From the IMG/VR virus record IMGVR_UViG_3300050821_003950, positions 1 through 64,000 of that record: 64,000 bases of DNA, one strand, 5' to 3'. This DNA comes from a virus. Shown here in pieces: positions 43,815 to 56,887 of the stretch. How positions within the stretch are numbered: position 1 is the first letter of the stretch; every line of letters begins with the position of its first letter. Position numbers and translations under genes: made by a program. The notes below the pieces were generated by a model, which saw only the letters and a list, made by a program, of their open reading frames with translations, was not told where the DNA came from and did no database searches.

Positions 43815-45782
43815 GTGGCGGCTCGCACCTCGCTCCCGAACGCGCGCGAAGTCTCCAAGGGCTTCGACGCGATGGTCGCCGACGTCCACGCGCGCGTGAT
43901 CGAAGCTCGCACGCTCACGACGGCGGACGCGATCATGCACGGCGCGACGGGGCCGATGGTCGTCGCGAAGGCGGGCGGCATCGGCGAGCCCGACGAGAGC
44001 ACGGGAACGAACCAAGTCACCCGCGACGACTACGCGACCGCGTTCACGAACCTCGGCGCGATCGACCCGGTCTACGACCCCGAGATGCTCGCGCTGCTCT
44101 TCGAGCATTCGAACAGCCTTCGGCAGAACGTCGACTCTTACGCGGTGAACATCGAAGGCTTCGGTCATCGCTTCGACCCGCTCTTCGACCTCTCGGCCAA
44201 GAACATCGATCAGCGACTCGGCGACGCAATCTTCACCGATCGTCAGCGCGCGCTCGACGAGGCGGCCGAGCCGACGGACGCGAAGTACCCGACGCCCGAA
44301 GAGATCGCCGAGAAGAAGAAGGAGATCGAACGCATCATGCGGATGGAGAAAATCCGCCTGACGCACTTCTTCGAGTATTGCTCGCCCGACACGAGCTTCG
44401 TCACCCTGCGCAAAAAGACGCGTCAGGATCTCGAAGTGATGGGGAACGCCTATTGGGAGATCCTCCGCAACCGCGGCGGGCAGATCGTTCAGTTCGTCTA
44501 CATGGCGGGCTTCACGATGCGACTGCTCCCGCTCGACATGGATCCCGTCGTCGTCTCGCACAAGATCCGCGTGAGCGATCTTTCCTTCGACGAGGTCACC
44601 TATTCGACGCGGCTTCGCCGCTACGTGCAGGTCGTCGAGGGGCGCGCGGTCTTCTTCAAAGAGCTGGGCGATCCGCGCATCATCTCGTCGCAGAGCGGCG
44701 CCGTGTTCAACGATCTTGATCAGCTCGCGCGCATCGAGCCGAATGTGCGGCCCGCGAACGAGCTTCTGCACTTTCGGATTCACTCGCCTCGCTCGCCCTA
44801 CGGCGTGCCGCGATGGATCGGCAACCTTCTCGCGGTCATCGGCTCGCGCCAAGCCGAAGAGGTGAACTTCAACTACTTCGAGAACAAGAGCGTCCCGCCG
44901 CTCGCGATCCTCGTCTCGGGCGGGCGCATGTCGCAGTCGTCCGTCGACCGCGTGACCGACTACATCGAGGCGAACCTCAAGGGGAAGCGCAACTTCCACA
45001 AGATCCTAGTTCTCGAAGCCGAGGCGGCGACGGGCGGCAAGGCGAGCGACGCGAACACCGCGAAGATGAAGATCGCGATCCAACCGCTCACCGGGGCGCA
45101 GCACACCGACGCGCTCTTTCAGAATTACGACGAGCGGAACATCGACAAGGTCGGGCAGAGCTTCCGACTCCCGCGCATGCTCCGCGGCGACATCCGAGAC
45201 TTCAACCGCTCGACGGCGGACGCCGCGCTCGTGTTCGCCGAGATGCAGGTCTTCGAGCCCGAGCGTCAAGAGTTCGACTTCATCCTGAACCGCAAGATCC
45301 TCTCAATGATCGGCGTCCGATTCTGGCGGCTCGTCTCGCTCGCGCCCGTGATGCGCGACCCGGTCGCCATGGCGGCGATCCTGAAAGACCTCGCGAACGC
45401 GGGCGTGCTCATGCCCGAGGAGTCGCGCGAGCTGGCGGGCGACGTCTTCAATCGCGAGTTCAAGCATCTCGGCGCGGACTGGACGAAGCAACCGATCGCG
45501 CTCAGCGTGGCGGGCGTGCCCGTGCAGCGCGAAGGCGTGACGCCCGAGCCTACGGGACCGAGAGAGCCGACCGACGAGCAAGGATGGGGCGAAGACGAGA
45601 TCGCGCCCGATCTGCACGAGGGGCAAGGCATCGAAGCGCGACTTCGTAAGAGCTTCAAGGGCGCGCGTCTGCGCGAGGTGCGAAAGCTCCTCGCGATGCG
45701 AAAGGCGCTCAAGCTCGTCGCGCACGACGAGTGGATCGCTCGGCTCACGGCGGAAGCCAAGAGCGACGCTGCCGCGGAGTAA
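43815..45782 (+). CDS. portal protein (PBSX-like)
   Basis: GNAYWEI.RN, ELLHF, YGVPRW, YFEN..VP, FRLP...G. Confidence 0.9.
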   Translation: MAARTSLPNAREVSKGFDAMVADVHARVIEARTLTTADAIMHGATGPMVVAKAGGIGEPDESTGTNQVTRDDYATAFTNLGAIDPVYDPEMLALLFEHSNSLRQNVDSYAVNIEGFGHRFDPLFDLSAKNIDQRLGDAIFTDRQRALDEAAEPTDAKYPTPEEIAEKKKEIERIMRMEKIRLTHFFEYCSPDTSFVTLRKKTRQDLEVMGNAYWEILRNRGGQIVQFVYMAGFTMRLLPLDMDPVVVSHKIRVSDLSFDEVTYSTRLRRYVQVVEGRAVFFKELGDPRIISSQSGAVFNDLDQLARIEPNVRPANELLHFRIHSPRSPYGVPRWIGNLLAVIGSRQAEEVNFNYFENKSVPPLAILVSGGRMSQSSVDRVTDYIEANLKGKRNFHKILVLEAEAATGGKASDANTAKMKIAIQPLTGAQHTDALFQNYDERNIDKVGQSFRLPRMLRGDIRDFNRSTADAALVFAEMQVFEPERQEFDFILNRKILSMIGVRFWRLVSLAPVMRDPVAMAAILKDLANAGVLMPEESRELAGDVFNREFKHLGADWTKQPIALSVAGVPVQREGVTPEPTGPREPTDEQGWGEDEIAPDLHEGQGIEARLRKSFKGARLREVRKLLAMRKALKLVAHDEWIARLTAEAKSDAAAE

Positions 45783-45786
45783 GCCC

Positions 45787-46059
45787 GTGCGCGTCAAGCG
45801 CTGCTACATGAAGTGCGCGCTCCGTCTCGCCGCGTGCGAGGTGAAGCGGATCCCGGTGAAGAACCTGCTCATCTTGAGCGGCTACTACGTCGGATGTCCC
45901 GCGTGCGGACGATCGATGACGGTCTCGACGACGCGCGCGCCCATCGTTGAAGAGGGGCTCGACCCGGGCGAGACGCCGCTCTTGTCGCTCGGCCCCGTTC
46001 CGTGCGAATCGTGCGGAGTCGTGTTCAAGATCCTCCGAGACGAGGTGTCCCTTGTTTGA
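45787..46059 (+). CDS. Zn-ribbon protein
   Basis: CPACG...CESCG. Confidence 0.55.
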   Translation: MRVKRCYMKCALRLAACEVKRIPVKNLLILSGYYVGCPACGRSMTVSTTRAPIVEEGLDPGETPLLSLGPVPCESCGVVFKILRDEVSLV

Positions 46060-49000
46060 GCTGTACGACGAGGGCGTCGTCGCGATCGACTACATCTTGA
46101 AGGACGCGCTTCACTACGAGGTCAGGAAGGCGCTCGACCCGCTGAACGCGCACCACTTCGAGATCCTGACGAAGTCGATCGCGCAGTCACTCAAGGGCCA
46201 CGTGATCCCCGTCGAGGACGGCGCGCTCAAGAAGGCGATGAACGTGCTCGATGCGAAGTGGACCGAGATGACGCCCGCGGCGCGCGGCAAGCTGCTCGGC
46301 GTCGCGTCGAGCTACCTCGGCGCTCCGGTCGCGCACGCGGTCATGCCGAAGATCGAACAGACGCTCAAGTTCGCCGGGAAGGATCTCGTCGAGGACACGA
46401 AGAAGAGTTCGATCCACACCTACGATCTCAAGATTTCGCCGAGCCTGACCGCGCACGACGATCTCACGTTGTCGAGCCTGATCACCTCGAACGGCAACTA
46501 CATCCGAGATCAGTACGGCAAGCGCTCCGAAGCGTTCAGCTTGAAGGCGAAGGGCGTCGTCGCGAACGGGATCTCGAAGGGGCTCGGTTCGTCCGACATC
46601 ACCGAGGATCTCGTCAAAGAGCTGGGCGACGCGCAGCGCGGGCGCGGCTATTGGGACATGATCGCGATGGTGTTCGCGAACCGCGCGCGGACGACGACGC
46701 AACTGCTCTCGTATCATGAGGCGGGGATCACCTCGTACCTATGGGAGAGCGTGCTCGACGAGGCGACGAGCGATCAGTGTCGCTTCATGCACGGCCGTCG
46801 GTTCAGCATGAAGAAGGCGGTCGCCTCGATCGACAAGGTCGACGCGCTCAAGAACCCGGAAGAGATCGAACAGATTCAACCGTTCCTCTCGGTCGGCAAC
46901 CATCCTGACGGCGGTAAGGGCATCTACTACGACCGCGGCAACGGCGGCGGGCGCGCGTTCGTGACGCAGATCACGAGCAGCGCCGTCGGCTTCAAAGACG
47001 ACACCGGAAGCTACTCGCACATGGGGACGGACGAGTCGCTCGAAGATCAAGGGCTGCACATGCCGCCGATCCACGGACGGTGCCGTTCGACGGTCATCCC
47101 GACCGAGAGCGCGACGTCGCCGGGCGGCGCTCCCCCCGAGCCCGTCGAGGAGCCCGCGGCGCCCCCGCCCCCGCCGAAACTCTCGGGCGGTGCGAAGAAA
47201 GCGGCAGCTCTCGCGCAGCTCGCCGACGTGAATCAAGGCGGCGAGGTCGACTCGTCGAAGTTCTTCGCGAATCACTCCGACGAGATCGACTACCTCGATC
47301 ACCCGATCTTCTCGGTCAATAGCAAGGCGAATTGGGAAGCGAACAAGGTCTCGAAGAAGCCGAACATCGACGACCTCACCTCGACGACGCCGAGCTTCGA
47401 CGCCGACAAGGTCGAGACGTACATCAAAAAGCCGACCGCGCTCGACAAGGCGAAGAAGCCGCAGGTCGTCAAATTCAAGGGGCAGTTCTTGATCCTGTCC
47501 GGGCACGAGCAGATCGCCGCGCAAAAGCTGATGGGGCAGAAGAAGGCTTACGTCGACTTCGTCGACCTCGACAAGCCGACGAAGTCGGGGCTCGTCGTCT
47601 CGCCCGTGGAGCCCGAGCCCCCCGAGACTTCGCTCGCGCACGTCATCACGCCCGTCGAGCCCGAGCCCCCCGCTCCTCCCCCGCCGCTCGCGCCCGCGCT
47701 CGTGCACACGAACCCGAGGGCAGCGGACCCCGAGTACCTGCGCGCCGAGGGCGTGAACATCTTGGGAGAGAAGACCGGCGACGCACGCGGCTCGAACAAG
47801 GGCGGCTTCTACACCGGCAAGGACGGCGTCGCGCGCTACGTGAAGTTCTACGAGGACCACTCGCAGGCGTGGAGCGAGCATCTCGCGAACTCGATCTATG
47901 CCGACCTCGGCCACGCGGCGCCCGAGTCGACGGTGTTCGAGCACGACGGAAAGATCGGCTACGCGTCCGAGATCGTCGCGGGCAAGACGTTGAAGGAAGC
48001 GATGAAGGGGACCGCTGCCGAAACGGTGAAGTACGCGAAAAAGATCATGAGCGGGTTCGCCGCGGACGTCCTCGTCGGAAATTGGGACGTCGTCGGGCTC
48101 GACTACGACAACGTCATGGTGACGAACGCGGGGCAAGTGCTGCGCATCGACAACGGCGGATCGTTCCTCATGCGCGCGAAGGCGGGACGAAAGCCCCCGG
48201 GCGTGCTGAACGACATCACCGAGTGGGACAAGTTCATCGACGCCGGGGTGAACCCTTCCTACTCGACGGTCGCCGGGTTCGCGGGCGTGCACGCCGCGGG
48301 CGAGTTCACCGACGAGATGAAGAAGCAAGTCATCGCCGAGATCGGGAAGATCATGGCGCTGCGCGACGCGCACGGCGGGTGGAAAGGCTACGTCGAGAAC
48401 GTGGCTCCCGGGATCCCGTGGGCCGACAAGAACCTGATCGTCACCATGCTCGAATCGCGAACGAACCGACTTGAGATCAAGGCCGAGGAGTTGAAGCGGC
48501 CCGCGCCGGCCGATCGCGAGCAACCGATCATCGGTCATCTTCCCGTCAAGAAACTTCCGCCCGGTCGGATGCCGATGCCGCTCCCCGAAGGGCACACGGA
48601 CAGTTACAAATGGGACGAGATCGCGCGCTCGCGTTTTCGCGGTGCCCCCGGTCAGGACGGCGTCACGGTGTTCACCGGGAACACCTACGGGATGATCCGA
48701 GCCCACGAGCAAGGGCACGAGAAGTTCGAGGGGTCGTCGATCACTAGCTCAGCGAAGAAGGCGGCGAGCGACATCGAGAAATTCTTCAAGGCTGCGAAGC
48801 CGTCGCCGGGCACCACGGTCTACCGCGGGATCCATAACAAGAAGCTCTACGAGAACGGCCGCGAGATCGAGACGCTCTCGAACGAGAAGATGCAGGCGCT
48901 CCTCGATCGAGAGTTCGTCGAGATGTCGGCGACGTCGTCGACGTCGTGGTCGCCGTCGACCGCGTTCAGCTTCGGGAACATCGACGAGTCGTCGGGCGGC

Positions 49001-49264
49001 TACGATAGCAAGATGAACCGCGTCCTCTTCGTCATGAAGCAAAAGTCGGGCGTGTGCGTGAAGCCGATCTCGCGGTCGGACAGCGAGAATGAGTTCCTTC
49101 TCAAGCAGGGGACGACGTTCAAGATCACCGATCGCTATCGGATCCCGAATCAGAAAAACGTGCTCGTGATCGAGTGCGAGGAAGTGCCCAAGAAACAGCC
49201 CGAGCCGAAGACGTGGAAGCGGTATGACGCCACTGGCACACGAGGCGAAGAAGGGTTACAATAG
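46052..49264 (+). CDS. MuF (SPP1 gp7-like) minor head protein fused to ParB-like, kinase-like and ADP-ribosyltransferase domains
   Basis: MuF: W.SVLDE.TS..C..MHGR, PPIHGRCRS; kinase-like: GSN.GG.Y, YVK, E.LA..IY, NWD, N, RIDNGG; ART: VYRG, STS, ENEFLL. Confidence 0.85.
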   Translation: MFELYDEGVVAIDYILKDALHYEVRKALDPLNAHHFEILTKSIAQSLKGHVIPVEDGALKKAMNVLDAKWTEMTPAARGKLLGVASSYLGAPVAHAVMPKIEQTLKFAGKDLVEDTKKSSIHTYDLKISPSLTAHDDLTLSSLITSNGNYIRDQYGKRSEAFSLKAKGVVANGISKGLGSSDITEDLVKELGDAQRGRGYWDMIAMVFANRARTTTQLLSYHEAGITSYLWESVLDEATSDQCRFMHGRRFSMKKAVASIDKVDALKNPEEIEQIQPFLSVGNHPDGGKGIYYDRGNGGGRAFVTQITSSAVGFKDDTGSYSHMGTDESLEDQGLHMPPIHGRCRSTVIPTESATSPGGAPPEPVEEPAAPPPPPKLSGGAKKAAALAQLADVNQGGEVDSSKFFANHSDEIDYLDHPIFSVNSKANWEANKVSKKPNIDDLTSTTPSFDADKVETYIKKPTALDKAKKPQVVKFKGQFLILSGHEQIAAQKLMGQKKAYVDFVDLDKPTKSGLVVSPVEPEPPETSLAHVITPVEPEPPAPPPPLAPALVHTNPRAADPEYLRAEGVNILGEKTGDARGSNKGGFYTGKDGVARYVKFYEDHSQAWSEHLANSIYADLGHAAPESTVFEHDGKIGYASEIVAGKTLKEAMKGTAAETVKYAKKIMSGFAADVLVGNWDVVGLDYDNVMVTNAGQVLRIDNGGSFLMRAKAGRKPPGVLNDITEWDKFIDAGVNPSYSTVAGFAGVHAAGEFTDEMKKQVIAEIGKIMALRDAHGGWKGYVENVAPGIPWADKNLIVTMLESRTNRLEIKAEELKRPAPADREQPIIGHLPVKKLPPGRMPMPLPEGHTDSYKWDEIARSRFRGAPGQDGVTVFTGNTYGMIRAHEQGHEKFEGSSITSSAKKAASDIEKFFKAAKPSPGTTVYRGIHNKKLYENGREIETLSNEKMQALLDREFVEMSATSSTSWSPSTAFSFGNIDESSGGYDSKMNRVLFVMKQKSGVCVKPISRSDSENEFLLKQGTTFKITDRYRIPNQKNVLVIECEEVPKKQPEPKTWKRYDATGTRGEEGLQ

Positions 49265-49871: not shown

Positions 49872-50957
49872 ATGGCCGAATGGTCGACCGCCTACGTGAA
49901 CAACCTCCCCGACTCGTCGTTTCTCTTCATCGAGGGCGGCGGCGAGAAGGACGAAGAGGGCAAGACGAAGCCGCGCTCGCTTCGGCATCTCCCGTGGAAG
50001 GACGCCGACGGTAAGGTCGACGACGCGCACGCGCACAACGCGCTTTCGAGAATCCCGCAGACGGACGGGCTCTCGGCTGATAGAAAGTCATCGCTACAGG
50101 ACAAGGTTCGTCGAGCCCTCGGCATCGACACGGAGAAAGACATGAGCACGATCAAGGACACGCTGGCGAAGATCGAGACGCTTCTCGGTGCGACCGTGGG
50201 GCTGACGAAGTCGGTCGAGTTCACGCCGGCCGAGTTCGTCGTGTACGCGCACGAGCAGATCGCGAAGGCCGCGACCGAGAAGGGCGAGCAGTCGACCAAG
50301 CGACTGAAGGCGCTCTACAACGCGGTCGTCGTGTTCAAGGACAACTACGTCGACGGCGAGAGCGAGAGCGTGAAGGTTCCGATCACGTGGCCCGACACGA
50401 CCGCGATGGACGAGAAGTCGAATCAGCTCACCGATCCCGCGAAGTCGGTCACGCAACCGAAACAGACCGCGTTCGCGACTGGTTTCGTCGCGAAGGTCGA
50501 CGCGCTCAAGAGTGCGATCGAAGAGCTGAAGGCGGCGGCGGTCGACGAGCCCGAGGACGAAGAGACCAAGGCCAAGAAGGCGGCCGAGGAAGAGGAAGAC
50601 AAGAAGGCGCAGAAGGCGCTCGAAGACGCGGGGCTGACCGAGGCGGCGAAGCGCCTCTTCGCGAAGGCGAAGGGAAAGAAGGAGTGGGGCAGCGACGCCG
50701 CGGGGGCGAGTGCTCCCGAAGCCGCGGGTCCCGCCGCGCCGAAACCGCCGAAGAAGCCGACGCCCCCGGGCGAGTCGCCCGAGGCGACCGATACGAAGGC
50801 GAAGAAGGGCGACGAGGTCGTCACGAAGGGCATCGACGTCGCGCCGGACGGCACCGTGTGGCCGGGCGACTTGAACACGCCCGAGTTCGTGAAGGACGGC
50901 ACGGTCCCCACGGCGAAATCGTTGGAGTGGGGTAGCGACACGCCGGCCGGCAAGTGA
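49872..50957 (+). CDS. head-associated protein (N-terminal NxLPDSxF...RHLP domain + scaffold-like region)
   Basis: AYVNNLPDSSF...RHLP..D..G..D..H..NALSR; acidic/Lys-rich segment shared with 54791 protein. Confidence 0.6.
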   Translation: MAEWSTAYVNNLPDSSFLFIEGGGEKDEEGKTKPRSLRHLPWKDADGKVDDAHAHNALSRIPQTDGLSADRKSSLQDKVRRALGIDTEKDMSTIKDTLAKIETLLGATVGLTKSVEFTPAEFVVYAHEQIAKAATEKGEQSTKRLKALYNAVVVFKDNYVDGESESVKVPITWPDTTAMDEKSNQLTDPAKSVTQPKQTAFATGFVAKVDALKSAIEELKAAAVDEPEDEETKAKKAAEEEEDKKAQKALEDAGLTEAAKRLFAKAKGKKEWGSDAAGASAPEAAGPAAPKPPKKPTPPGESPEATDTKAKKGDEVVTKGIDVAPDGTVWPGDLNTPEFVKDGTVPTAKSLEWGSDTPAGK

Positions 50958-50969
50958 TCGGGGGTCTTC

Positions 50970-53900
50970 ATGAAGGCCGACGACACGGCGACCCCGCGAC
51001 GCCGCGGCGAGTCGGATCCTGAAGAGAGGATCGTCTCGCGCGAGAAGGACGAAGTCGGCGTCGAGAAAGTTCAGCCCGTCGGGATCTTCGGATACTCGGC
51101 GGGCAAGAGCTTGATCGCGAAGCGACTGGTCAAGCTCTTTCCCGCGCACGACACCTACGTCGAGCCGTTCGCGGGCTCGGCGGCGCTCTTCTTCGCGAAG
51201 ACCGAGGCGCCCGTCGAGGTGCTGAACGATCAAGATGCCGACGTGATGTTCGCCTACAAGGCGATCCAGAAACTCTCGAAGGACGAGCTAGCGAAGTTCG
51301 CGTCGAAGGATTGGGGCGGCTCGCCCGAGCTGTTCAAGAAGCTCCAAGGAAGCGCACCGACCGACAAGCTCGATCGGCTGCACAAGTTCCTCTACGTGAT
51401 GCACTTCACGTTCGGGAAGAGGAAGAACGGGCTCTTTCGATCCGACGGCGTCGGACGCGTGTGCAAGGCGCCTGCGCGCGTCGCGAACCTGCAAGCTCGT
51501 CTGAAGCACGCGAAGATTTTGTGCGGCGACTACGAGAAGGCGATCAAGGGCTACGACAGCAAGAGCGCCTTCCACTTCCTCGATCCTCCCTACGCGGGCT
51601 CGCATGCGTGGGGCGAGATCGGCGAGAAGGGATTCGACGAGGCGCGCTTCCGTAAGGTGCTCGAAGGGATCAAGGGACGGTTCCTTCTCACCTACGGCAC
51701 GACGGGCAAGCTCGACACGTCGGGGTTCGAGGTCAAGAGGATGCGCCAAGTTCGCAACGTGCGCCGCGGGCTCGGCGACACGAACGGCAAGGCGAACCTG
51801 ACGCACTTGATCGTCTCGAACTTCAAGGTCGCCGCGAAGTCGCTCGGCTCGGACGTCGAGCTGGACGACGTGATGCAGATCGTCGACGTCGGCCCCGAGG
51901 GCGAGCACGTGATGATGACGGGATCGCAGACGACCGTGAGTGTCCCCGAGCAGCTCGCGCCTGCGCGCAAGTGGGAGCACGAGAACGACTTGCTCGCGTA
52001 TCCCGCCGAGGTCGGCGCCGTGAAGAGCGACATCCGGCTTCGCTTCCTCGACAAGCGCGTCGAGATGGACTTCGTCGTCCCGATGAACGACACCACGATC
52101 GGGTGGACGCTCGACGTGCAGCGCGCCGAGTTGAACCAACCGCCCGAGCTGGTCATCAAGAATTTCTCGTTCGAGGGGTCGCGGTTCTTTTGGCCGCTGA
52201 CGAAGGGCGTGATCGCCTTCGAGACGCCGAGCGAATCGATCGCGACCGACGTTGCGAAGTTCGACGAGCCGCTCGTCGAGTTCGGACTTCAGACCGAGAC
52301 GAGCCACGAGTATTTCATCTCGAAGAGCGGCGAGTGCGCGGGACAGCTCACGCTCGGGCGCGACGCGGATCGGTTTCCTCCGCTCTTCGATACGCACCCT
52401 TGGCTCGCGACGTACATCGACACAAAATTCATCCCGAACGCCGTCCTCAAGGGCGCGCCGATGCCACCTGACGGCGTGAGCGCGCTTCCTCTCGTTCTCG
52501 AAAAAGCGATCCCGGTCGAGTTCCGATATTGGGAGAGGAAGGGCGACGAGGCGCGCGAGTGCCGCGATGCGCTCATCGCGTCCGGGTTCTTCGAGTCAAC
52601 GATGATGGCCCCGGTCGACGGCGAGCTTGCCCCGGTCGTCGAGAGCTTCAAGCTGTTCGAGCCCGTCGAGACTGCCGAGCCCGTGAGTGAGTGGCCGCTC
52701 TACAAGGCCGCGTCGCTCCTCCGCGACGGCGAGTCGCTCGTCGAGGTGTTCTCGCCCGGCCCCGATGCGATCGCGAAAGCGGCGGGCTCGGGCCGAGTCG
52801 TCTACATCGACGCGGGCGACGTGAACGACGGCGCGCTCGGTGTGCTCGCGAAGTCTCTCGGCACGTCGGCCGACGAGTACATCGTTACGTCCGTCGCGAG
52901 CAGCGAGGCGCACGCCGCGCTCGCGAAGCTCGGCCGCGTGTTCCAATTTCGTCCGGGCGAAGGAGTCGGCGCCGATGCCGTCAAACGTCTTTTCGTCGCA
53001 AGTTTCGGTGTTCGCGGGGACGATATTCTCTGGCTCGACAAGGGGGACGTCCCGAGTCCGACCTACCCTAACGATCCGCGTAAGCCGAAGCTTCGCGAAT
53101 ACACGACCCCGAGCGATGACTCTCCCGACCTTGGAAAAGCTGACGGGAAACATCCTGGCGCACCGGCAGACGATGACACCGTCCGAAGTGTCGTGCATCT
53201 CGCGGACACGATCGGCGACAATCTTGCGCACGCGCGCGCGCACGTGGAGTCCGTCGTCACGTGCAAGGATCTAGACGCGGCACATTGGAACGGCTCGCAC
53301 GCGGCGAAACATCTCGGCGAAGCGGCCGATCACGCGAAGCGGCTCGGCGAGCATATCAACAAACACCCCGAGATGGCCGCGGAGTGGCGGCGGCTCGGCT
53401 CGCTCGATCCGTATCCGCTCCCGTCGACGGCGAAGTTCGCGCTCGCCTCGAAGGCGGCGAAAGAGAAGACGCCGCGCGGCATGCTCGAAGGCTTCGGCCC
53501 GCCGAACGAGTGGAGCGGCTACATCGGCATGGCTCTCGGTCCCGAGCGACGCAAGACGCTCCGCGAGACGTGGGACGCGCTCACGGCCGAAGAGAAGGCG
53601 AAGGTGCAAGCCGCGTTTCAGGCGAGCTTCGAGAAAGCCGAGTTCAACAACCCCGACCCGGGCGGCCCCGGCGATCGCAAGCAACCGCGCGAGCTGGACA
53701 AGGGCACGGGCGACGCGACGTTTCAGACGGGCGAAGCGGGACGGTTGCAGCCCGCGGTTCAATTCGATGTCGCCGGCAACCCGAAGGTGCGCGAGCGCGA
53801 CCACGAGCGCTCACTGAAGATCGTCAAGGCTGACGACTCGGAAGAACACTACGTGCTCGGCATCGTGCTCGAACCCGACGTCGTCGACGCTCAGAAGGAC

Positions 53901-54638
53901 ATCTACTCGTCGACCGAGGTTCGCGACGCGTGCCACAAGTACATGAGCGAGTTTCAGAACAGCGGACTCATGCACAAGGAGATCGTGAACGGGAAGGTCG
54001 TGCTCCTAGAGTGCTATCTCGCACCGTGCGATTTCAGCGTCGGCGATCAGCACGTGAAAAAGGGGACGTGGATGCAAGCGGTCCGCGTGAAGGACGCGAA
54101 GCTTTGGGACGACGTGAAGAAGGGCGCGCTCACCGGCTTCTCGATCGGCGGCAGCGCGAACCGTCAGCCCGACCCGAAGGCGAACCGGAAGTATCTCGCG
54201 CGTAAAGAGAGCGCCGAGAAGAAGATCGCGTTCCAAGGGATCCCGATCCACGTCGACCGCCCGAAGGGCAGTGTTCAGATGGGCGTTGACGCGAAGGGCA
54301 ACGAGTGGAAGCGCGAGTACAAAACCGACTACGGGTTCATCCCTCGCACGAAGGGCGGCGACGGTGAGGGGCTCGACGTCTTCGTCGGCCCGAACAACAA
54401 TTCGCCGTTCGCCTATTGGGTGACGCAGCACAACGACGAGGGCGAGTTCGACGAGTACAAGCTGTTCCTCGGCTACGATTCGCAGGCGGAAGCGAAGAAG
54501 GCTTACGAGGATCACATTCCGAAGAAATACTTCGGCGGCATGCGCGAGGGGACGATCCATCAGATCAAAGCGCTCTTGAACCAAGAGCCGAAAGAGCCGC
54601 TCTCGAAGGCCGTCCGGCTCATGCTCGACGCCGGCTGA
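50970..54638 (+). CDS. fusion: Dam-like (D12) DNA adenine methyltransferase + XkdF-like prohead protease + inorganic pyrophosphatase-like domain
   Basis: MTase: GY.AGK, YVEPFAGSAA, LND, FLDPPY; XkdF: VLG.VLEPD..D...D, MH, GTW, W..VK.G.LTGFSIGG; PPase-like: PKGS, DYGFI..T...DG..LDVFVG, FDEYK..LG. Confidence 0.85.
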   Translation: MKADDTATPRRRGESDPEERIVSREKDEVGVEKVQPVGIFGYSAGKSLIAKRLVKLFPAHDTYVEPFAGSAALFFAKTEAPVEVLNDQDADVMFAYKAIQKLSKDELAKFASKDWGGSPELFKKLQGSAPTDKLDRLHKFLYVMHFTFGKRKNGLFRSDGVGRVCKAPARVANLQARLKHAKILCGDYEKAIKGYDSKSAFHFLDPPYAGSHAWGEIGEKGFDEARFRKVLEGIKGRFLLTYGTTGKLDTSGFEVKRMRQVRNVRRGLGDTNGKANLTHLIVSNFKVAAKSLGSDVELDDVMQIVDVGPEGEHVMMTGSQTTVSVPEQLAPARKWEHENDLLAYPAEVGAVKSDIRLRFLDKRVEMDFVVPMNDTTIGWTLDVQRAELNQPPELVIKNFSFEGSRFFWPLTKGVIAFETPSESIATDVAKFDEPLVEFGLQTETSHEYFISKSGECAGQLTLGRDADRFPPLFDTHPWLATYIDTKFIPNAVLKGAPMPPDGVSALPLVLEKAIPVEFRYWERKGDEARECRDALIASGFFESTMMAPVDGELAPVVESFKLFEPVETAEPVSEWPLYKAASLLRDGESLVEVFSPGPDAIAKAAGSGRVVYIDAGDVNDGALGVLAKSLGTSADEYIVTSVASSEAHAALAKLGRVFQFRPGEGVGADAVKRLFVASFGVRGDDILWLDKGDVPSPTYPNDPRKPKLREYTTPSDDSPDLGKADGKHPGAPADDDTVRSVVHLADTIGDNLAHARAHVESVVTCKDLDAAHWNGSHAAKHLGEAADHAKRLGEHINKHPEMAAEWRRLGSLDPYPLPSTAKFALASKAAKEKTPRGMLEGFGPPNEWSGYIGMALGPERRKTLRETWDALTAEEKAKVQAAFQASFEKAEFNNPDPGGPGDRKQPRELDKGTGDATFQTGEAGRLQPAVQFDVAGNPKVRERDHERSLKIVKADDSEEHYVLGIVLEPDVVDAQKDIYSSTEVRDACHKYMSEFQNSGLMHKEIVNGKVVLLECYLAPCDFSVGDQHVKKGTWMQAVRVKDAKLWDDVKKGALTGFSIGGSANRQPDPKANRKYLARKESAEKKIAFQGIPIHVDRPKGSVQMGVDAKGNEWKREYKTDYGFIPRTKGGDGEGLDVFVGPNNNSPFAYWVTQHNDEGEFDEYKLFLGYDSQAEAKKAYEDHIPKKYFGGMREGTIHQIKALLNQEPKEPLSKAVRLMLDAG

Positions 54639-54648
54639 AATTCGAGGA

Positions 54649-54678
54649 TTGACACGGCGCGTCCGCGCCTGTCAGAAT
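54649..54678 (+). promoter_or_regulatory. sigma70-like promoter of scaffold/capsid operon
   Basis: TTGACA-18 nt-CAGAAT. Confidence 0.55.
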
Positions 54679-54790
54679 TGCGCACGTAGGCCGACCTTCG
54701 GGTCGCCGGGTTGCTGAGAGTTCTCATGCCCGGGACGGAAACGCAGCACGCGTTTCGGTTCCGGGCATTTTGCATTTGAGGTCGCGAAAC

Positions 54791-55858
54791 ATGGCCGACG
54801 CAGCGGAAGGCGTTCATCGACTGAAAGACATCCTCGTCGAAGAGGTGTCTCTCGTCGATCGCGCCGCGAACAAGCGTCGGTTCCTAGTCGTCAAGCGTGA
54901 GGGTGGCGAGATGAGCGAGCTGCGTTCCAACGGTCGGGGCGGATTCACTCGGGTCATGAAGGCCGACGACACCGACGACGAAGAGACCAAGGCGCGCAAG
55001 GCGGCCGAGGAAGCCGAAAAGGCGAAGGGTAAGCCCTTCCCCGGCGCAGCGAAGCCGTTCGGCAAGCCCGGCGAGGGCGAGCCTCCGAAGAAGGACGACG
55101 AGGACGATGAGGAGACGAAGGCGAAGAAGGCGGCCGAGAAGGAAGAGGACGAGAAGGCTTTGAAGGTTCTCGAAGCCGCGGGCCTCACCGAAGCCGCGAA
55201 GCGTCTCGGCAAGGCCGACCCGCAAGGGATGAAGCTCGCGAAGGAAGTGTCGAGTCTCGCCGACGCGCTCACGAAGGTCGCCGAGGATCTCAAGGGCGAG
55301 GAAGAGGACGAGCCGTCCGACGTCCACATGAAGAAGATCCTCGCGGCCCACAAGAAGATGGGCGCCATGTGCGACAAGTACATGCGCAAGGTCGGCAAGG
55401 CGGCGATCGAAAAGGTCGGCGCGAAGATGGCCGGCGCTCGGCTGAACGCGTTCAAGGAAGCGCTCGGCAACCTTCAGTCGATCCTCTCCGAGCTGATGGA
55501 GACGCCGGGGAGCGTGAAAGAGCACGCGGCCGACCCGGGCGATCCGACCATGCCCGCGAAGGGCTTCAAGGCTTCCAACCCGAGCGACGCGCCGACGAAT
55601 GCGATGGGCGAGGCCGCGGTCAAGGCCATGCTCGAAAAGGTCATGAGCGACGTCGTCGAGCCGCTCGTCGAGGCGAACAAGAACCTCGTCGCTCGTCTCT
55701 CGAAGGTCGAGAAGGGCGTCGTCCCGAGCAACTCGATCCCGGTCGAGAAGCGCGGCGGCGGTCCACGCGGCGGTGCGGGGATCGCGTGGCCGATGGACAT
55801 GAACGAGCCCGTGAAGGGCGACGTGAAAAAGAGCGAGAGCTTCTTCGACGTCGACTGA
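54791..55858 (+). CDS. capsid scaffold/protease-associated protein
   Basis: RLKDI.VEEVSLVDRAAN...F.VVK N-terminus; charged coiled coil; directly upstream of MCP. Confidence 0.75.
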   Translation: MADAAEGVHRLKDILVEEVSLVDRAANKRRFLVVKREGGEMSELRSNGRGGFTRVMKADDTDDEETKARKAAEEAEKAKGKPFPGAAKPFGKPGEGEPPKKDDEDDEETKAKKAAEKEEDEKALKVLEAAGLTEAAKRLGKADPQGMKLAKEVSSLADALTKVAEDLKGEEEDEPSDVHMKKILAAHKKMGAMCDKYMRKVGKAAIEKVGAKMAGARLNAFKEALGNLQSILSELMETPGSVKEHAADPGDPTMPAKGFKASNPSDAPTNAMGEAAVKAMLEKVMSDVVEPLVEANKNLVARLSKVEKGVVPSNSIPVEKRGGGPRGGAGIAWPMDMNEPVKGDVKKSESFFDVD

Positions 55859-55924
55859 TCGGCGAGCGACGAAGACACGAGATCCGAAACCGAGTCAGAC
55901 GCGAGAGAACAGGGAGAGAGAACG

Positions 55925-56887
55925 ATGGGAACGGTTGCCGCTGGAATCCTCGACAACAACACGATTCTTCAGAAGGCGGATCTCGCGCTCTCGGACATCA
56001 CGACCGACGGCGGACTTTTGCAGCCTGCGCAGGCGCAGAAGTTCATGCGGATCCTCATCAAAGAGGCCGTCGTGATGAAGCTCGCCACGGTCGTCCCGAT
56101 GCGCAGCCCGAAGCAGCTCATCGAGAAGATCCAGTTCGGCGAGCGCATCTTGCACGCCGGCACCGAGGCGACCGCGCTCGCCGTCGGGGACCGTTCGAAG
56201 CCCGACACCGAAGAGGTCGAGCTGAACGCTCAGCTCTTCAAGGCCGAGGTGCGGTTGAACAACGAGGTGCTCGAAGACTCGATCGAGCGCGGCCAGCTTC
56301 GTCAGACGATCATGCAGCTCATGGCCGAGCGCATCGCGACGGATATGGACGAGTGCATCGTCCAGTCGAACACCACGTCGACCGATCCGTTCCTCTCACG
56401 TCTGTCCGCGGGCGGGCTCTTTCAACAGAGCGTCTCGCAGGTCGTCGATCAGGCGACGACGTTCACGACGAAGCAGACGTTCCACACCATGATCAAGGCG
56501 ATGCCTTCTCAGTTCCAGCGGAACAAGAAGGATCTTCGCTTCCTCACGTCGATCCAAAGCGAGCTGGACTACCGTGACTCGCTCGGTGAGCGCGCCACGA
56601 TCGGCGGCGACAAGTGGACGACCGAGGACGTGCCCGTGCAGTACGGCGGGATCCCGCTCGTCGGCGTGCCGCTCTTCCCCGAGAACCTCGGCTCCGGTCT
56701 GAACACGACCGACGTGATCCTGACCGACCCGAAGAACATCAACGTCGGGATCTGGCGCAACATCCGCGTCGAGACGGACAAGCTCGTGAGCGAGGGCGTC
56801 CTGATCATCGTCGCGACGCTCCGCTTCGACATGAAGTACGCTCACGAGCCCGCGGTCGTGAAGTCGATCAACGTCCGCATCCAGTAA
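55925..56887 (+). CDS. major capsid protein (HK97 fold, XkdG-like)
   Basis: GGLLQPAQA..F, EVLEDSIE, YGGIP, LTDPKNI..G..R.I..E, RFD. Confidence 0.9.
   Translation: MGTVAAGILDNNTILQKADLALSDITTDGGLLQPAQAQKFMRILIKEAVVMKLATVVPMRSPKQLIEKIQFGERILHAGTEATALAVGDRSKPDTEEVELNAQLFKAEVRLNNEVLEDSIERGQLRQTIMQLMAERIATDMDECIVQSNTTSTDPFLSRLSAGGLFQQSVSQVVDQATTFTTKQTFHTMIKAMPSQFQRNKKDLRFLTSIQSELDYRDSLGERATIGGDKWTTEDVPVQYGGIPLVGVPLFPENLGSGLNTTDVILTDPKNINVGIWRNIRVETDKLVSEGVLIIVATLRFDMKYAHEPAVVKSINVRIQ

What the first reader, a model, noticed from the sequence alone, without database searches (positions are those of the whole stretch)
50970..54638. Dam methylase fused to the prohead protease and a pyrophosphatase: a possible capsid-loaded, self-released DNA-protection polyprotein
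Seen: one uninterrupted 1222-aa ORF in the head module, between MuF and scaffold/MCP. It has a complete D12/Dam MTase (~51060-51830; FAGS, DPPY), a long unknown middle, an XkdF-like protease (~53810-54170) and a C-terminal PPase-like domain (~54220-54590). Known: XkdF-like domains are putative capsid maturation proteases, and P1 DarB and polyvalent proteins deliver MTase or PPase domains for antirestriction. Inference: fusion to the protease would place the methylase inside the procapsid, where it could methylate DNA during packaging or after ejection, with proteolysis freeing the modules. 'K-A/S' junctions recur before modules (LDKG, LGKA, FEKA, IVKA, AEKK), which may be cleavage sites.
Basis: partly seen in the sequence, partly recalled or inferred. 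Interest (0 to 1): 0.8.

Follow-up and report, generated by a model that had tools for sequence, protein, structure and literature searches.

The report
Enzyme cargo fused to phage head protease
An uncultured 96-kb soil phage makes its only head-maturation protease as part of a 1222-residue protein that also carries a DNA methylase, two further nucleic-acid-enzyme-like domains and a pyrophosphatase. This probably loads these enzymes into the capsid, a design that is widespread in metagenomes but has never been tested.

Summary
Window 50970-54638 (+) is one 1222-aa ORF holding a D12/Dam methyltransferase (FAGS, DPPY), an XkdF-type protease domain and an InPase pyrophosphatase, all far above Pfam cut-offs.

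- **The "unknown middle"** resolves into a LigD-3'-phosphoesterase-like barrel, a small Rossmann domain and a variable linker.
- **The fusion is real.** About 27 independent protein clusters share the full architecture. More than 100 viral contigs and prophages, mostly in Myxococcota genomes and MAGs, keep the order portal, MuF, [cargo-XkdF], scaffold, capsid.
- **XkdF is the constant part.** The cargo varies: 1-3 Dam domains, PE-like, InPase, ligase, LigT.
- **XkdF looks like a working prohead protease.** It is the only protease candidate in the 95.6-kb record, its model best matches T4 gp21, and it keeps invariant His/Ser.

New here:
- The scaffold's conserved N-terminal peptide is the same motif that heads single-chain XkdF proteins. 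It is predicted to dock on this XkdF domain (ipSAE 0.85; best control 0.00).
- A hydrophobic-x-Lys-Ala-Asp/Glu motif is concentrated in the polyprotein, scaffold and capsid protein.

Best reading (about 0.6): a scaffold-tethered, self-processing capsid cargo loader. Methylation inside the capsid is unsupported. This scan found the same theme in at least 8 other genomes. It is a new variant of polyvalent or internal-protein delivery.

The parts
50970..54638 (+). Whole polyprotein gene (1222 aa, P0001)
   Evidence: Single ORF. The full-length architecture recurs in about 27 independent clusters.
51081..51866 (+). D12/Dam-type N6-adenine DNA methyltransferase domain (aa 38-299). FAGS lies at 51168-51179 and DPPY at 51582-51593.
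   Evidence: Pfam PF02086 at 5.5e-18. phrog_56 and phrog_13242 match aa 38-299. PDB DpnM 2dpm matches at 2.5e-10. The motifs are invariant. It is the only D12 MTase in the 95.6-kb record.
52017..52418 (+). LigD 3'-phosphoesterase-like beta-barrel (aa about 350-483). Catalytic status is unknown.
   Evidence: AF2 model, pLDDT about 90 in this region. VIA match to 3p4h_A: Z 9.1, rmsd 2.6 A over 100 residues. Foldseek 3p4h E 3.8e-3, prob 1.0. No Pfam hit even at E<=10. By BLAST matches of the aa 300-570 segment, it is the commonest partner of XkdF among relatives.
52674..53012 (+). Small Rossmann-like domain (aa about 569-681). It may be a degenerate methyltransferase core (V-x-Y-x-DAGD where Dam has DPPY).
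   Evidence: VIA matches: 7m6b_A Z 7.7 and 2ore_D (E. coli Dam) Z 7.5. The hhalign comparison with the Dam domain was not significant.
53043..53816 (+). Variable, partly His-rich linker (aa about 692-949) with short conserved motifs (P-S-D-D-x-x-D-L-G-K-A; G-P-P-x-x-W-S-G).
   Evidence: Length and sequence vary between homologues while the short motifs persist or repeat.
53130..53144 (+). Candidate cleavage site L-G-K|A-D (aa 721-725)
   Evidence: D-L-G-K-[AS] is conserved, and repeated in some homologues. Motif enrichment.
53628..53642 (+). Candidate cleavage site F-E-K|A-E (aa 887-891)
   Evidence: This site is less conserved in the family.
53820..53834 (+). Candidate cleavage site, or N-terminal edge of XkdF: I-V-K|A-D (aa 951-955)
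   Evidence: K953 is nearly invariant. The same h-h-K-[AS]-D precedes XkdF in Stenotrophomonas phage Summit and Lactococcus phage 50901.
53817..54164 (+). XkdF-type (Peptidase_S78_2) prohead protease domain (aa 950-1065). Candidate catalytic residues are His1002 (53973-53975) and Ser1058 in G-F-S-I-G-G (54141-54143).
   Evidence: Pfam at 7e-30. It is the only XkdF in the record, and no S78, ClpP or S49 family is present. VIA match to T4 gp21 5jbl_A: Z 6.8, rmsd 2.6 A over 90 residues; VZV protease Z 4.1. H1002 and S1058 are invariant.
54216..54572 (+). InPase domain (family I pyrophosphatase of the phage polyvalent-protein type, aa 1083-1201)
   Evidence: Pfam PF18823 at 2.2e-31. AF2 pLDDT 88-98. 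Foldseek PPases at prob 1.0. Acidic residues are nearly invariant. The domain also sits at the C-terminal end of a 765-aa phage portal sequence, 9b41_L.
54649..54678 (+). Sigma-70-like promoter match between the polyprotein stop and the scaffold gene (weak evidence)
   Evidence: TTGACA-18-CAGAAT with TG, 10 of 12 positions. Two such sites were found in 8.5 kb against 0.5 expected.
54791..55858 (+). Scaffold-like protein (355 aa from the ATG; the ORF opens at TTG 54770)
   Evidence: Position directly upstream of the MCP and charged, helical composition. phrog_13975.
54812..54898 (+). Scaffold N-terminal docking motif (aa 8-36, V-H-R-L-x-D-I-x-V-E-E-V-S-L-V-D-R-A-A-N-K-R-R-F-L-V-V-K-R)
   Evidence: It is present in all 34 distinct scaffold N-termini taken from related loci; the alignment of 23 of them with the window's has 7 invariant and 11 nearly invariant positions. 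It matches the N-terminal motif of single-chain XkdF proteins. Predicted to bind XkdF: ipSAE 0.85/0.85/0.83, best control 0.00.
54953..54967 (+). Scaffold candidate cleavage site V-M-K|A-D, just after the docking motif. A second site, L-G-K|A-D, lies at 55205-55219.
55925..56887 (+). Major capsid protein (XkdG-like, HK97 fold). Candidate N-terminal cleavage site L-Q-K|A-D at 55967-55981.
   Evidence: phrog_1623 at 2e-85 and Pfam Phage_capsid. The N-terminal h-L-x-K-A-D-L-A-L...G-G-x-L-x-P-A-Q is conserved in most of the 70 distinct relatives' N-termini printed.

Best explanation
The gene encodes a capsid-cargo polyprotein whose anchor is the phage's own prohead protease.

Proposed mechanism:
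1. The polyprotein is made late, with the head proteins.
2. Its XkdF domain binds the conserved N-terminal peptide of the scaffolding protein. In single-chain XkdF proteins this peptide is part of the same chain. Here it acts in trans as a tether, and perhaps also as an active-site plug, as the N-terminus of T4 gp21 does.
3. The whole chain is therefore built into the procapsid core together with the scaffold.
4. After shell completion the Ser/His protease becomes active. It cuts after Lys in hydrophobic-x-Lys|Ala-Asp/Glu sites at three kinds of place:
   - in the scaffold, including a site just behind the tether;
   - at the capsid protein N-terminus;
   - in its own linker.
5. This frees a roughly 80-kDa block (Dam methylase, PE-like and Rossmann-like domains) and an XkdF-InPase piece.
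6. Scaffold fragments leave. The enzyme block stays in the head and enters the next host with the DNA, where it protects or services the incoming genome: adenine methylation against restriction, and possibly end processing.

Shown here: the domains, the gene order, the family-wide architecture and the motif distribution.
Predicted by a model: the XkdF-scaffold docking.
Inferred: incorporation into the capsid, cleavage, ejection, and the time and place of methylation.
For: 1. The ORF and its domains are real.
2. The gene sits in the protease slot of a head module whose order is kept in more than 100 loci: portal, MuF, [cargo-XkdF], scaffold, MCP, adaptor.
3. XkdF is the only protease candidate in the 95.6-kb record.
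4. The XkdF model best matches T4 gp21 (Z 6.8, rmsd 2.6 A over 90 residues) and VZV protease. His1002 and Ser1058 are invariant.
5. XkdF is constant while the cargo shuffles between Dam x1-3, PE-like, InPase, ligase and LigT.
6. Of the 150 nearest XkdF representatives, 135 carry at least 100 aa before XkdF and 128 end within 15 aa after it. In all, 5171 representatives match at E<=1e-3.
7. The scaffold N-terminal motif equals the cis N-terminal motif of Lactococcus phage 50901 XkdF. It also sits on the scaffold of phage Summit, whose XkdF is a separate gene.
8. The complex model supports binding of that peptide to XkdF, with contacts to the Ser1058 strand. The score is 0.85 and the best of 3 controls is 0.00. 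This mark was reached by 58 of 80 solved complexes and 2 of 110 mismatched pairs. The runs agree in at least 83% of contacts and the partner pLDDT is at least 56. My own alignments were used.
9. h-x-K-A-[DE] occurs 9 times in 76 ORFs (23,570 aa). Seven of these lie in the polyprotein, scaffold and MCP (binomial P 7e-7, or about 3e-4 after allowing for their 2-fold Lys richness).
10. The same bias holds in 60 related loci. Motifs per 1000 aa: MCP 4.8, scaffold 0.8 and polyprotein 0.6, against portal 0.08, MuF 0.13 and adaptor 0.
11. The MCP N-terminal K-A-D site is conserved in most of the 70 distinct relatives' N-termini printed.
12. InPase domains are known in virion-associated phage proteins and fused to portals (PMC5512222).
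13. The genome shows extreme avoidance of several 6-bp palindromes but carries 1121 GATC sites. That points to strong restriction pressure.
Against: - There are no proteomic, structural or biochemical data for any member, and no cultured phage in the phage collection carries a Dam-XkdF fusion.
- XkdF proteolysis is itself only 'putative' in Pfam, and the fold match is middling (Z below 8).
- The cut-site motif was defined after looking at the data. The three proteins are Lys-rich. At least one MCP occurrence (aa 104) probably lies inside the fold. The I-V-K-A-D before XkdF is also present in stand-alone XkdF, so it may be structural.
- The docking pass may reflect what the model has learned from single-chain XkdF proteins.
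- A methylase needs SAM, and it is hard to see it working in a packed head.
- Methylating 1121 sites after entry would be a race against restriction.
- DNA could equally be methylated in the cytoplasm before packaging.
Confidence: 0.6

Rival explanations
1. Cytoplasmic late methylase. The fusion only couples the amount and timing of the methylase and other enzymes to head assembly. The full-length protein, or an autoproteolytic product, modifies replicating or concatemeric DNA before or at packaging. Only the XkdF part ends up in the prohead, and nothing is delivered to the next host.
For: - The enzyme needs SAM and accessible DNA, which the cytoplasm provides.
- It is the only D12 methylase in the record, so it must also serve progeny DNA.
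- MTases placed next to packaging genes have been proposed to act during packaging (Iyer et al. 2013, as cited in PMC6536676).
- A split form exists in one relative, 816 aa plus 380 aa with the break in the linker, so covalent linkage is not obligatory.
Against: - It does not explain why unrelated cargo (PE-like, InPase, ligase, LigT, 1-3 Dams) is fused to the same small protease domain in thousands of proteins.
- It does not explain why linkers carry the motif shared with scaffold and MCP.
- The two readings are not exclusive. The protein may act in the cytoplasm first and be packaged afterwards.
Confidence: 0.22
2. Loaded but not cut. XkdF here is mainly a scaffold-binding adaptor, or a weak or inactive protease. 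The chain is incorporated whole, and the K-A-D motifs are structural or binding elements rather than cleavage sites.
For: - The docking prediction needs no catalysis.
- The XkdF domain (126 Pfam positions) matches only part of gp21 (chain residues 36-142 of 165) and ends right after the Ser.
- The I-V-K-A-D element belongs to the XkdF domain edge in stand-alone proteins.
- Phage N4 vRNAP is packaged unprocessed (PMC5512222).
Against: - His1002 and Ser1058 (G-F-S-I-G-G) are invariant across the 27 aligned full-length homologues; S1058 stays nearly invariant and the G-x-[LI]-T-G-F-S-I-G-G block is among the most conserved stretches once cargo-variant homologues are added.
- No other protease is present to remove a 355-aa scaffold.
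- The motif sits at the MCP N-terminus, as in many processed capsid proteins.
Confidence: 0.13
3. Assembly or gene-calling artefact. Several separate genes were joined by a mis-assembly or a sequencing error.
For: The record is a metagenomic contig, and no read-level test was possible. Only short Logan contigs from two soil runs matched. One relative is split in the linker.
Against: - The same uninterrupted architecture occurs in about 27 clusters from JGI, ENA, NCBI and Logan assemblies at 32-79% identity. L002, at 73%, has the same neighbours.
- Codon-position GC is uniform.
- Domain order variants all keep one ORF.
Confidence: 0.02

Closest known systems
Phage-type polyvalent proteins (Iyer, Burroughs, Anand, de Souza, Aravind 2017, J Bacteriol; PMC5512222)
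   Same: - One chain combines disparate enzymes and is encoded beside virion genes.
- It is predicted to be packaged and injected.
- The InPase domain (PF18823) was defined there and noted as fused to a portal.
- An embedded peptidase is proposed to separate the modules.
- Assemblin-like peptidases were noted at the C-termini of some polyvalent proteins.
   Different: - That paper does not use the word XkdF (0 occurrences). The hub peptidase it discusses is the zincin-like MPTase.
- A scaffold-peptide tether, a Lys|Ala-Asp cut code and LigD-PE-like cargo turned up neither in my term look-ups nor in the peptidase and InPase passages I read.
- Here the peptidase is the phage's own and only maturation protease, sitting in the protease slot.
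T4 internal proteins (IPI-III, Alt) with the capsid-targeting sequence, processed by prohead protease gp21 (review PMC9958956)
   Same: - Non-structural proteins are built into the scaffolding core, trimmed by the prohead protease, kept in the head and injected.
- IPI is anti-restriction.
- gp21 is kept inactive by its own N-terminal segment.
- The XkdF model best matches gp21.
   Different: T4 cargo are separate small proteins with a roughly 10-aa N-terminal tag, and the sites are L/I-x-E. Here the cargo is covalently fused to the protease itself, the predicted tether is a scaffold peptide binding the protease, and the candidate sites follow Lys.
Canonical XkdF protease-scaffold proteins (B. 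subtilis PBSX XkdF type; Lactococcus phage 50901 gp34; Stenotrophomonas phage Summit gp3)
   Same: The XkdF domain, the slot between portal/MuF and MCP, and the N-terminal V-S-x-V-D-[KR]-A-A-N-K motif are shared.
   Different: The order in 50901 is motif, XkdF, scaffold, all in one chain. In Summit, XkdF stands alone with the motif on the scaffold. In this window the motif is also on the scaffold, but XkdF carries 949 aa of enzymes before it and an InPase after it.
Phage P1 Dar system (DarB methyltransferase-helicase packaged in the head; PMC9024508, PMC12810830 listed, not read)
   Same: A DNA methyltransferase is carried in the capsid as anti-restriction cargo. This is my own knowledge; I did not read these papers.
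   Different: DarB is a separate giant protein with a helicase. Its loading depends on DarA/Hdf, not on fusion to a protease. No helicase domain is present here.
LigD 3'-phosphoesterase domain (PDB 3p4h, 3n9b)
   Same: The beta-barrel fold matches (Z 9.1 and 7.8).
   Different: There is no sequence-family match. I could not confirm the metal-binding His/Asp set, so activity is unknown.

Membership tests
D12 class N6-adenine DNA methyltransferase (PF02086) | Profile match above the curated cut-off | tested here: met
   66 bits against a cut-off of 22, aa 45-235. PDB Dam/DpnM sequence hits range from 2.5e-10 to 1e-6.
D12 class N6-adenine DNA methyltransferase (PF02086) | SAM-binding motif I (F-x-G-x-G type) and catalytic motif IV (D-P-P-Y) | tested here: met
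   E-P-F-A-G-S-A-A (F67, G69, S70 invariant) and D205-P-P-Y208 invariant in 27 homologues. Motif I reads G-S-A rather than G-x-G.
D12 class N6-adenine DNA methyltransferase (PF02086) | Methyl transfer to adenine in a defined site | not testable with these tools
   Specificity is unknown. GATC is frequent (1121 sites, observed/expected 1.11), which neither shows nor excludes GATC as the target.
XkdF / Peptidase_S78_2 prohead protease (PF14550) | Profile match above the cut-off | tested here: met
   104 bits against 24; 109 bits in the genome search.
XkdF / Peptidase_S78_2 prohead protease (PF14550) | Gene in the head module between portal and major capsid protein | tested here: met
   The slot is the same in Lactococcus phage 50901 and phage Summit.
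XkdF / Peptidase_S78_2 prohead protease (PF14550) | Assemblin/gp21-like protease fold | tested here: inconclusive
   The best structural match is T4 gp21 5jbl_A (Z 6.8, rmsd 2.6 A, 90 residues), with VZV protease at Z 4.1. The Z is middling and model pLDDT is 68-82.
XkdF / Peptidase_S78_2 prohead protease (PF14550) | Conserved Ser and His nucleophile pair | tested here: met
   H989, H1002 and S1058 are invariant. S1058 aligns near the end of the gp21 match (chain residue about 140). Which His is catalytic is inferred.
XkdF / Peptidase_S78_2 prohead protease (PF14550) | Proteolysis of scaffold or capsid protein | not testable with these tools
   I found no experimental report for any XkdF.
InPase (PF18823), family I pyrophosphatase of phage polyvalent proteins | Profile match, OB-fold PPase structure and conserved acidic metal ligands | tested here: met
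   109 bits against 26.8. Foldseek PPases at prob 1.0 and VIA Z 6.0-6.4. D1120, D1131, D1136, D1161 and E1162 are nearly invariant.
Phage-type polyvalent protein (Iyer et al. 2017) | Two or more unrelated enzymatic domains in one chain, phage-encoded beside virion genes, with an embedded peptidase | tested here: met
   Definition taken from PMC5512222.
Phage-type polyvalent protein (Iyer et al. 2017) | Packaged in the virion and delivered to the host | not testable with these tools
   Indirect support only.
LigD 3'-phosphoesterase family | Sequence-family membership (Pfam LigD_N type profile) | tested here: not met
   Zero Pfam families at E<=10 for aa 290-700. phmmer against PDB found none at E<=10.
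LigD 3'-phosphoesterase family | PE beta-barrel fold | tested here: met
   3p4h_A at Z 9.1, rmsd 2.6 A, 100 of 118 residues; 3n9b_A at Z 7.8.
LigD 3'-phosphoesterase family | Mn-binding His/His/Asp plus Arg/His/Tyr active site | not tested
   No residue-level structural alignment was available. The conserved residues in this domain (R358, W379, R385, R405, H446, E447, Y448, K452) do not obviously spell the known set.
P1 DarB-like antirestriction protein | Methyltransferase joined to a DExH helicase in a giant head protein | tested here: not met
   There is no helicase domain. phrog_10089 'DarB-like' matches only the InPase part.

The most novel reading that the evidence does not exclude
XkdF plus the scaffold N-terminal peptide form a general, modular capsid-loading device: a split protease/pro-peptide pair. 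Anything fused upstream of XkdF is carried into the procapsid by docking on the scaffold, released by cleavage after Lys at K|A-D sites, and injected with the genome. Phages across at least several thousand protein clusters would use it to deliver DNA methylases and DNA/RNA end-repair-like enzymes. That would be a pre-emptive genome-protection and repair kit, and a natural platform for packaging foreign proteins in phage heads.
Probability: 0.45. Interest if true: 0.75.

Novelty: new variant of a known kind. Interest (0 to 1): 0.6.

Why it matters
If the model holds, a large and so far undescribed group of tailed phages loads enzymes into the head by fusing them to the maturation protease. This group includes many prophages in Myxococcota genomes.
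- **A concrete loading route.** The tether would be a 30-residue scaffold peptide, a simple and testable mechanism. It would give a mechanism to the 2017 prediction that polyvalent proteins ride in capsids.
- **A new cleavage specificity.** It would define a specificity (after Lys, before Ala-Asp/Glu) for a protease family that has never been assayed.
- **Repair-type cargo.** It would show that DNA methylases and repair-type domains can be part of the injected arsenal.
- **An engineering handle.** The tether and cut-site pair could also be used to package chosen proteins into phage capsids.

Tried and rejected
- **Read-level check of ORF continuity.** Only two soil-metagenome runs hold small shares (0.07 and 0.06), and they are kept as contigs. 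A few short pieces are identical to the window, and no piece spans the ORF. No RNA holder is listed. This gives no evidence either way.
- **Megablast of 50000-56000 against cultured phages.** No match.
- **tblastn of a 401-aa Dam-XkdF fusion against cultured phages.** No record has both domains together.
- **Is the Rossmann-like domain a degenerate Dam?** hhalign gave Prob 0.2%, not significant. Only a suggestive alignment of the motif I region remains, so this stays a hint.
- **Sequence searches for the PE-like domain.** Pfam at E<=10 and PDB phmmer found nothing.
- **BFVD fold search of the middle region.** Only an unnamed 827-aa viral protein (E 1.4e-4), which adds nothing.
- **R-D-x-x-G-[KR]-F junction tag.** This tag was reported by an earlier scan note. 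It is absent from this head module.
- **DLP5-like phage idea.** The capsid protein is only about 36% identical to the Delepquintavirus phage Summit, so the relationship is distant.
- **Literature.** Searches for a described Dam-XkdF or protease-anchored cargo found none. Subscription journals are not covered.

Full report
**Observation.**
Window 50970-54638 (+) is a single 1222-aa ORF. Its third-position GC (0.85) matches its neighbours.

Pfam places three domains, all far above the curated cut-offs:
- a D12 methyltransferase at aa 45-235;
- XkdF/Peptidase_S78_2 at aa 950-1065;
- InPase (PF18823) at aa 1083-1201.

PHROGs agree. FAGS (aa 67-70) and DPPY (aa 205-208) are invariant in 27 full-length homologues.

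The surrounding genes are as follows:
- portal, 43815-45782;
- a 1105-aa MuF+ADP-ribosyltransferase protein, 45947-49264;
- three ORFs of 87, 107 and 361 aa;
- the polyprotein;
- a 355-aa scaffold-like protein, 54791-55858;
- an XkdG-like HK97-fold capsid protein, 55925-56887;
- a head-tail adaptor further on.

The window is bases 1-64000 of a 95,607-bp linear viral record, with a CheckV completeness estimate of 74%.

**The middle.**
The family alignment shows two zones between the methylase and XkdF:
- aa 300-690 are conserved;
- aa about 692-949 are a variable linker that keeps a few short motifs.

An AlphaFold model of aa 290-700 (mean pLDDT 78.5) contains two folded domains.
- **A beta-barrel, aa about 350-483.** It matches archaeal and Pseudomonas LigD 3'-phosphoesterase domains: 3p4h_A at Z 9.1, rmsd 2.6 A over 100 residues, and Foldseek prob 1.0.
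- **A small Rossmann domain, aa about 569-681.** Its best matches are Dam-type methyltransferases, at Z 7.5-7.7.

Neither domain has a sequence-family hit. I could not confirm the PE catalytic residues. The idea that the Rossmann domain is a dead second Dam (DAGD in place of DPPY) is only a hint.

**The C-terminal part.**
A model of aa 937-1222 confirms a family I pyrophosphatase fold for InPase.

For XkdF the best structural match is T4 prohead protease gp21: 5jbl_A at Z 6.8, rmsd 2.6 A over 90 residues. VZV protease also appears, at Z 4.1. The Z is middling, so I treat the fold as likely rather than proven.

His989, His1002 and Ser1058 (in G-F-S-I-G-G) are invariant. Ser1058 falls where the gp21 match ends, near gp21 residue 140.

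No other common prohead protease family (S78, ClpP, S49) and no second XkdF is found in the record. XkdF is therefore the only candidate maturation protease.

**Is the fusion real and how common is it?**
The word-based protein search returned about 27 clusters with Dam, XkdF and InPase in one protein of 936-1325 aa. They come from JGI, ENA, NCBI and Logan assemblies, several on contigs of 78-97 kb.

Mapping the segments of this protein onto all homologues shows that XkdF is the constant part and the cargo is shuffled. The architectures seen include:
- Dam, PE, Rossmann, XkdF, InPase (the type in this window);
- PE, Rossmann, XkdF, InPase;
- PE, InPase, XkdF;
- Dam, Dam, InPase, XkdF;
- Dam x2 or x3, then XkdF;
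- chains of up to 2052 aa with LigT and ATP-dependent ligase domains.

An exhaustive phmmer search with the XkdF domain alone found 5171 representative proteins at E<=1e-3. Of the nearest 150:
- 135 have at least 100 aa before XkdF (median 404 aa);
- 128 end within 15 aa after XkdF;
- only 15 have at least 100 aa after XkdF, as this protein does.

By BLAST matches of the aa 300-570 segment, the PE-like region is the commonest partner.

One relative is split in the linker into 816 aa and 380 aa.

No read-level test was possible. However, independent assemblies at 32-79% identity make an assembly artefact very unlikely.

**Context in relatives.**
tblastn of the window's head proteins against 163 fetched loci shows the same order in more than 100 of them. 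The order is portal, MuF-type protein, [Dam x1-3 with or without other domains, then XkdF], scaffold, MCP, adaptor. These loci are IMG/VR contigs and prophage-like loci in bacterial genomes.

Most of the bacterial genomes are Myxococcota: Myxococcus, Corallococcus, Archangium and Polyangiaceae.

The host of the window's phage is unknown. The GC content is 65%. The only sequencing runs holding any of this stretch, at small shares, are soil metagenomes.

No cultured phage in the phage collection has a Dam-XkdF fusion. The capsid protein is distantly related (36-41% identity) to those of Bacillus phage B83, Stenotrophomonas phage Summit and SIO-2-like vibriophages.

**A tether.**
The first 36 or so residues of the scaffold are its best conserved part. 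The motif V-H-R-L-x-D-I-x-V-E-E-V-S-L-V-D-R-A-A-N-K-R-R-F-L-V-V-K-R is present in all 34 distinct scaffold N-termini taken from relatives, and an alignment of 23 of them with the window's has 7 invariant and 11 nearly invariant positions.

The same motif opens the single-chain XkdF-scaffold protein of Lactococcus phage 50901, where it directly precedes the XkdF domain. In Stenotrophomonas phage Summit, XkdF is a separate 200-aa gene and the motif sits on the scaffold, as in this window.

I therefore asked whether the peptide binds XkdF in trans. The complex model supports binding but does not show it:
- the score was 0.85, 0.85 and 0.83 in three runs;
- the best of 3 controls scored 0.00;
- this mark was reached by 58 of 80 solved complexes and 2 of 110 mismatched pairs;
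- the runs agree in at least 83% of contacts;
- the partner pLDDT is at least 56;
- my own alignments were used, so the calibration holds only roughly.

Scaffold residues 6-35 contact XkdF residues 961-1070, including the Ser1058 strand.

One caveat applies. Because the motif is part of the same chain in other XkdF proteins, the pass may reflect that learned intramolecular packing. That is also the biological argument for a split pair. The T4 review notes that the N-terminal segment of gp21 blocks its own active site until it is cleaved (PMC9958956). The scaffold peptide may play a similar double role.

**Candidate cut sites.**
The motif hydrophobic-x-K-A-[DE] occurs nine times in 76 predicted ORFs (23,570 aa) of the record. 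Seven of the nine lie in three adjacent proteins:
- the polyprotein, at aa 721, 887 and 951;
- the scaffold, at aa 55 (just behind the tether) and aa 139;
- the MCP, at aa 15 and 104.

The binomial P is 7e-7. These proteins are twice as Lys-rich as the rest, which lowers the significance to roughly 3e-4. The motif was also chosen after inspection. Control motifs with R, G or E substituted show no such bias.

In 60 non-identical related loci the density per 1000 aa is as follows:

| Protein | Motifs per 1000 aa |
|---|---|
| MCP | 4.8 |
| Scaffold | 0.8 |
| Polyprotein | 0.6 |
| MuF | 0.13 |
| Portal | 0.08 |
| Adaptor | 0 |

The MCP N-terminus N-R-T-I-L-E-K-A-D-L-A-L-x-D-L-T-x-G-G-G-x-L-x-P-A-Q is conserved in most of the 70 distinct relatives' N-termini printed.

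The linkers of relatives carry P-S-D-D-x-x-D-L-G-K-A-D-F-x-T-G-x-P-G-T-L-Q-P-A-V-Q, sometimes twice. From the K-A-D onward this resembles the MCP N-arm.

Not every occurrence need be a site:
- MCP aa 104 probably lies inside the fold;
- I-V-K-A-D is also the edge of stand-alone XkdF domains.

The map predicts these products: Dam-PE-Rossmann (aa 1-723, about 80 kDa), linker fragments, and XkdF-InPase (aa 954-1222). No motif separates Dam from the PE-like domain, or XkdF from InPase.

**Mechanism and rivals.**
My best reading (0.6) is a scaffold-tethered, self-processing cargo loader. It works like T4 internal proteins and like the phage polyvalent proteins of Iyer et al. 2017. That paper defined the InPase domain, noted its fusion to a portal, and noted assemblin-like peptidases at the C-termini of some polyvalent proteins.

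The sequence of a solved 765-aa phage portal (9b41_L) carries this InPase at residues 629-728. In the E217 portal of the same length, only residues 97-528 were built, including a barrel that projects into the head (PMC10329688). The InPase part is therefore beyond the modelled region.

When and where the methylase acts is open. I found no support for methylation inside the capsid.

The rivals are:
- a purely cytoplasmic late methylase (0.22);
- loading without cleavage (0.13);
- an assembly artefact (0.02).

**Comparison and novelty.**
This protein is a member of the D12, XkdF and InPase families by the tests listed above. By definition it is also a phage polyvalent protein. It is not a DarB homologue, and it is not a sequence-family member of LigD PE.

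Four things appear undescribed in the searchable literature:
- XkdF as a general cargo anchor;
- the trans tether on the scaffold;
- the Lys|Ala-Asp code;
- the PE-like cargo.

This scan has noted the same theme on other DNA in at least 8 genomes, and a Lys cut-site code in several. My results agree with those notes and add the tether prediction. I rate it a new variant of a known kind, with interest 0.6.

Noticed in passing
window 45947-49264 (+): A 1105-aa protein combines a MuF domain (aa about 204-294) with a C-terminal ADP-ribosyltransferase exoenzyme domain (PF03496, aa 934-1075). It looks like a MuF-anchored toxin or effector protein, and is a second likely capsid-delivered enzyme in the same head module.
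   Followed up: no
window 49872-50957 (+) and 54791-55858 (+): The 361-aa ORF just upstream of the polyprotein shares a 38-aa module with the scaffold at 79% identity (D-E-E-T-K-A-K-K-A-A-E...A-G-L-T-E-A-A-K-R-L; E 1.6e-13). Pieces of this ORF also turn up inside the polyprotein linkers of relatives. It may be another scaffold-like or core protein.
   Followed up: partly
whole record G000 (95,607 bp; window = 1-64000): Several 6-bp palindromes are almost completely avoided:
- CTCGAG, 0 observed against 112 expected;
- GAGCTC, 0 against 60;
- CTGCAG, 0 against 29;
- AGATCT, 0 against 28;
- CAGCTG, 1 against 27;
- TTCGAA, 3 against 44;
- GGGCCC, 1 against 16.

GATC, by contrast, is abundant (1121 sites, observed/expected 1.11). 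This points to strong selection by type II restriction systems.
   Followed up: partly
window 54649-54678 (+): A good sigma-70-like promoter match with an extended -10 element lies in the 132-nt gap between the polyprotein stop and the scaffold gene, next to two inverted repeats. It could raise scaffold and capsid expression above that of the polyprotein.
   Followed up: no
relatives P0067/P0068 (same 48.1-kb ENA contig; cluster of P0005): In one close relative the polyprotein is called as two genes. One is 816 aa (Dam, PE, Rossmann) and the other 380 aa (linker, XkdF, InPase), with the split inside the variable linker. This is either a natural split or a frameshift error.
   Followed up: no
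L165 (Stenotrophomonas phage Summit) 1993-3195: In this cultured Delepquintavirus a ParB-like nuclease domain protein sits between the portal and the stand-alone XkdF. That is the slot where the window has fused cargo, so adjacent cargo genes may be the unfused state.
   Followed up: no
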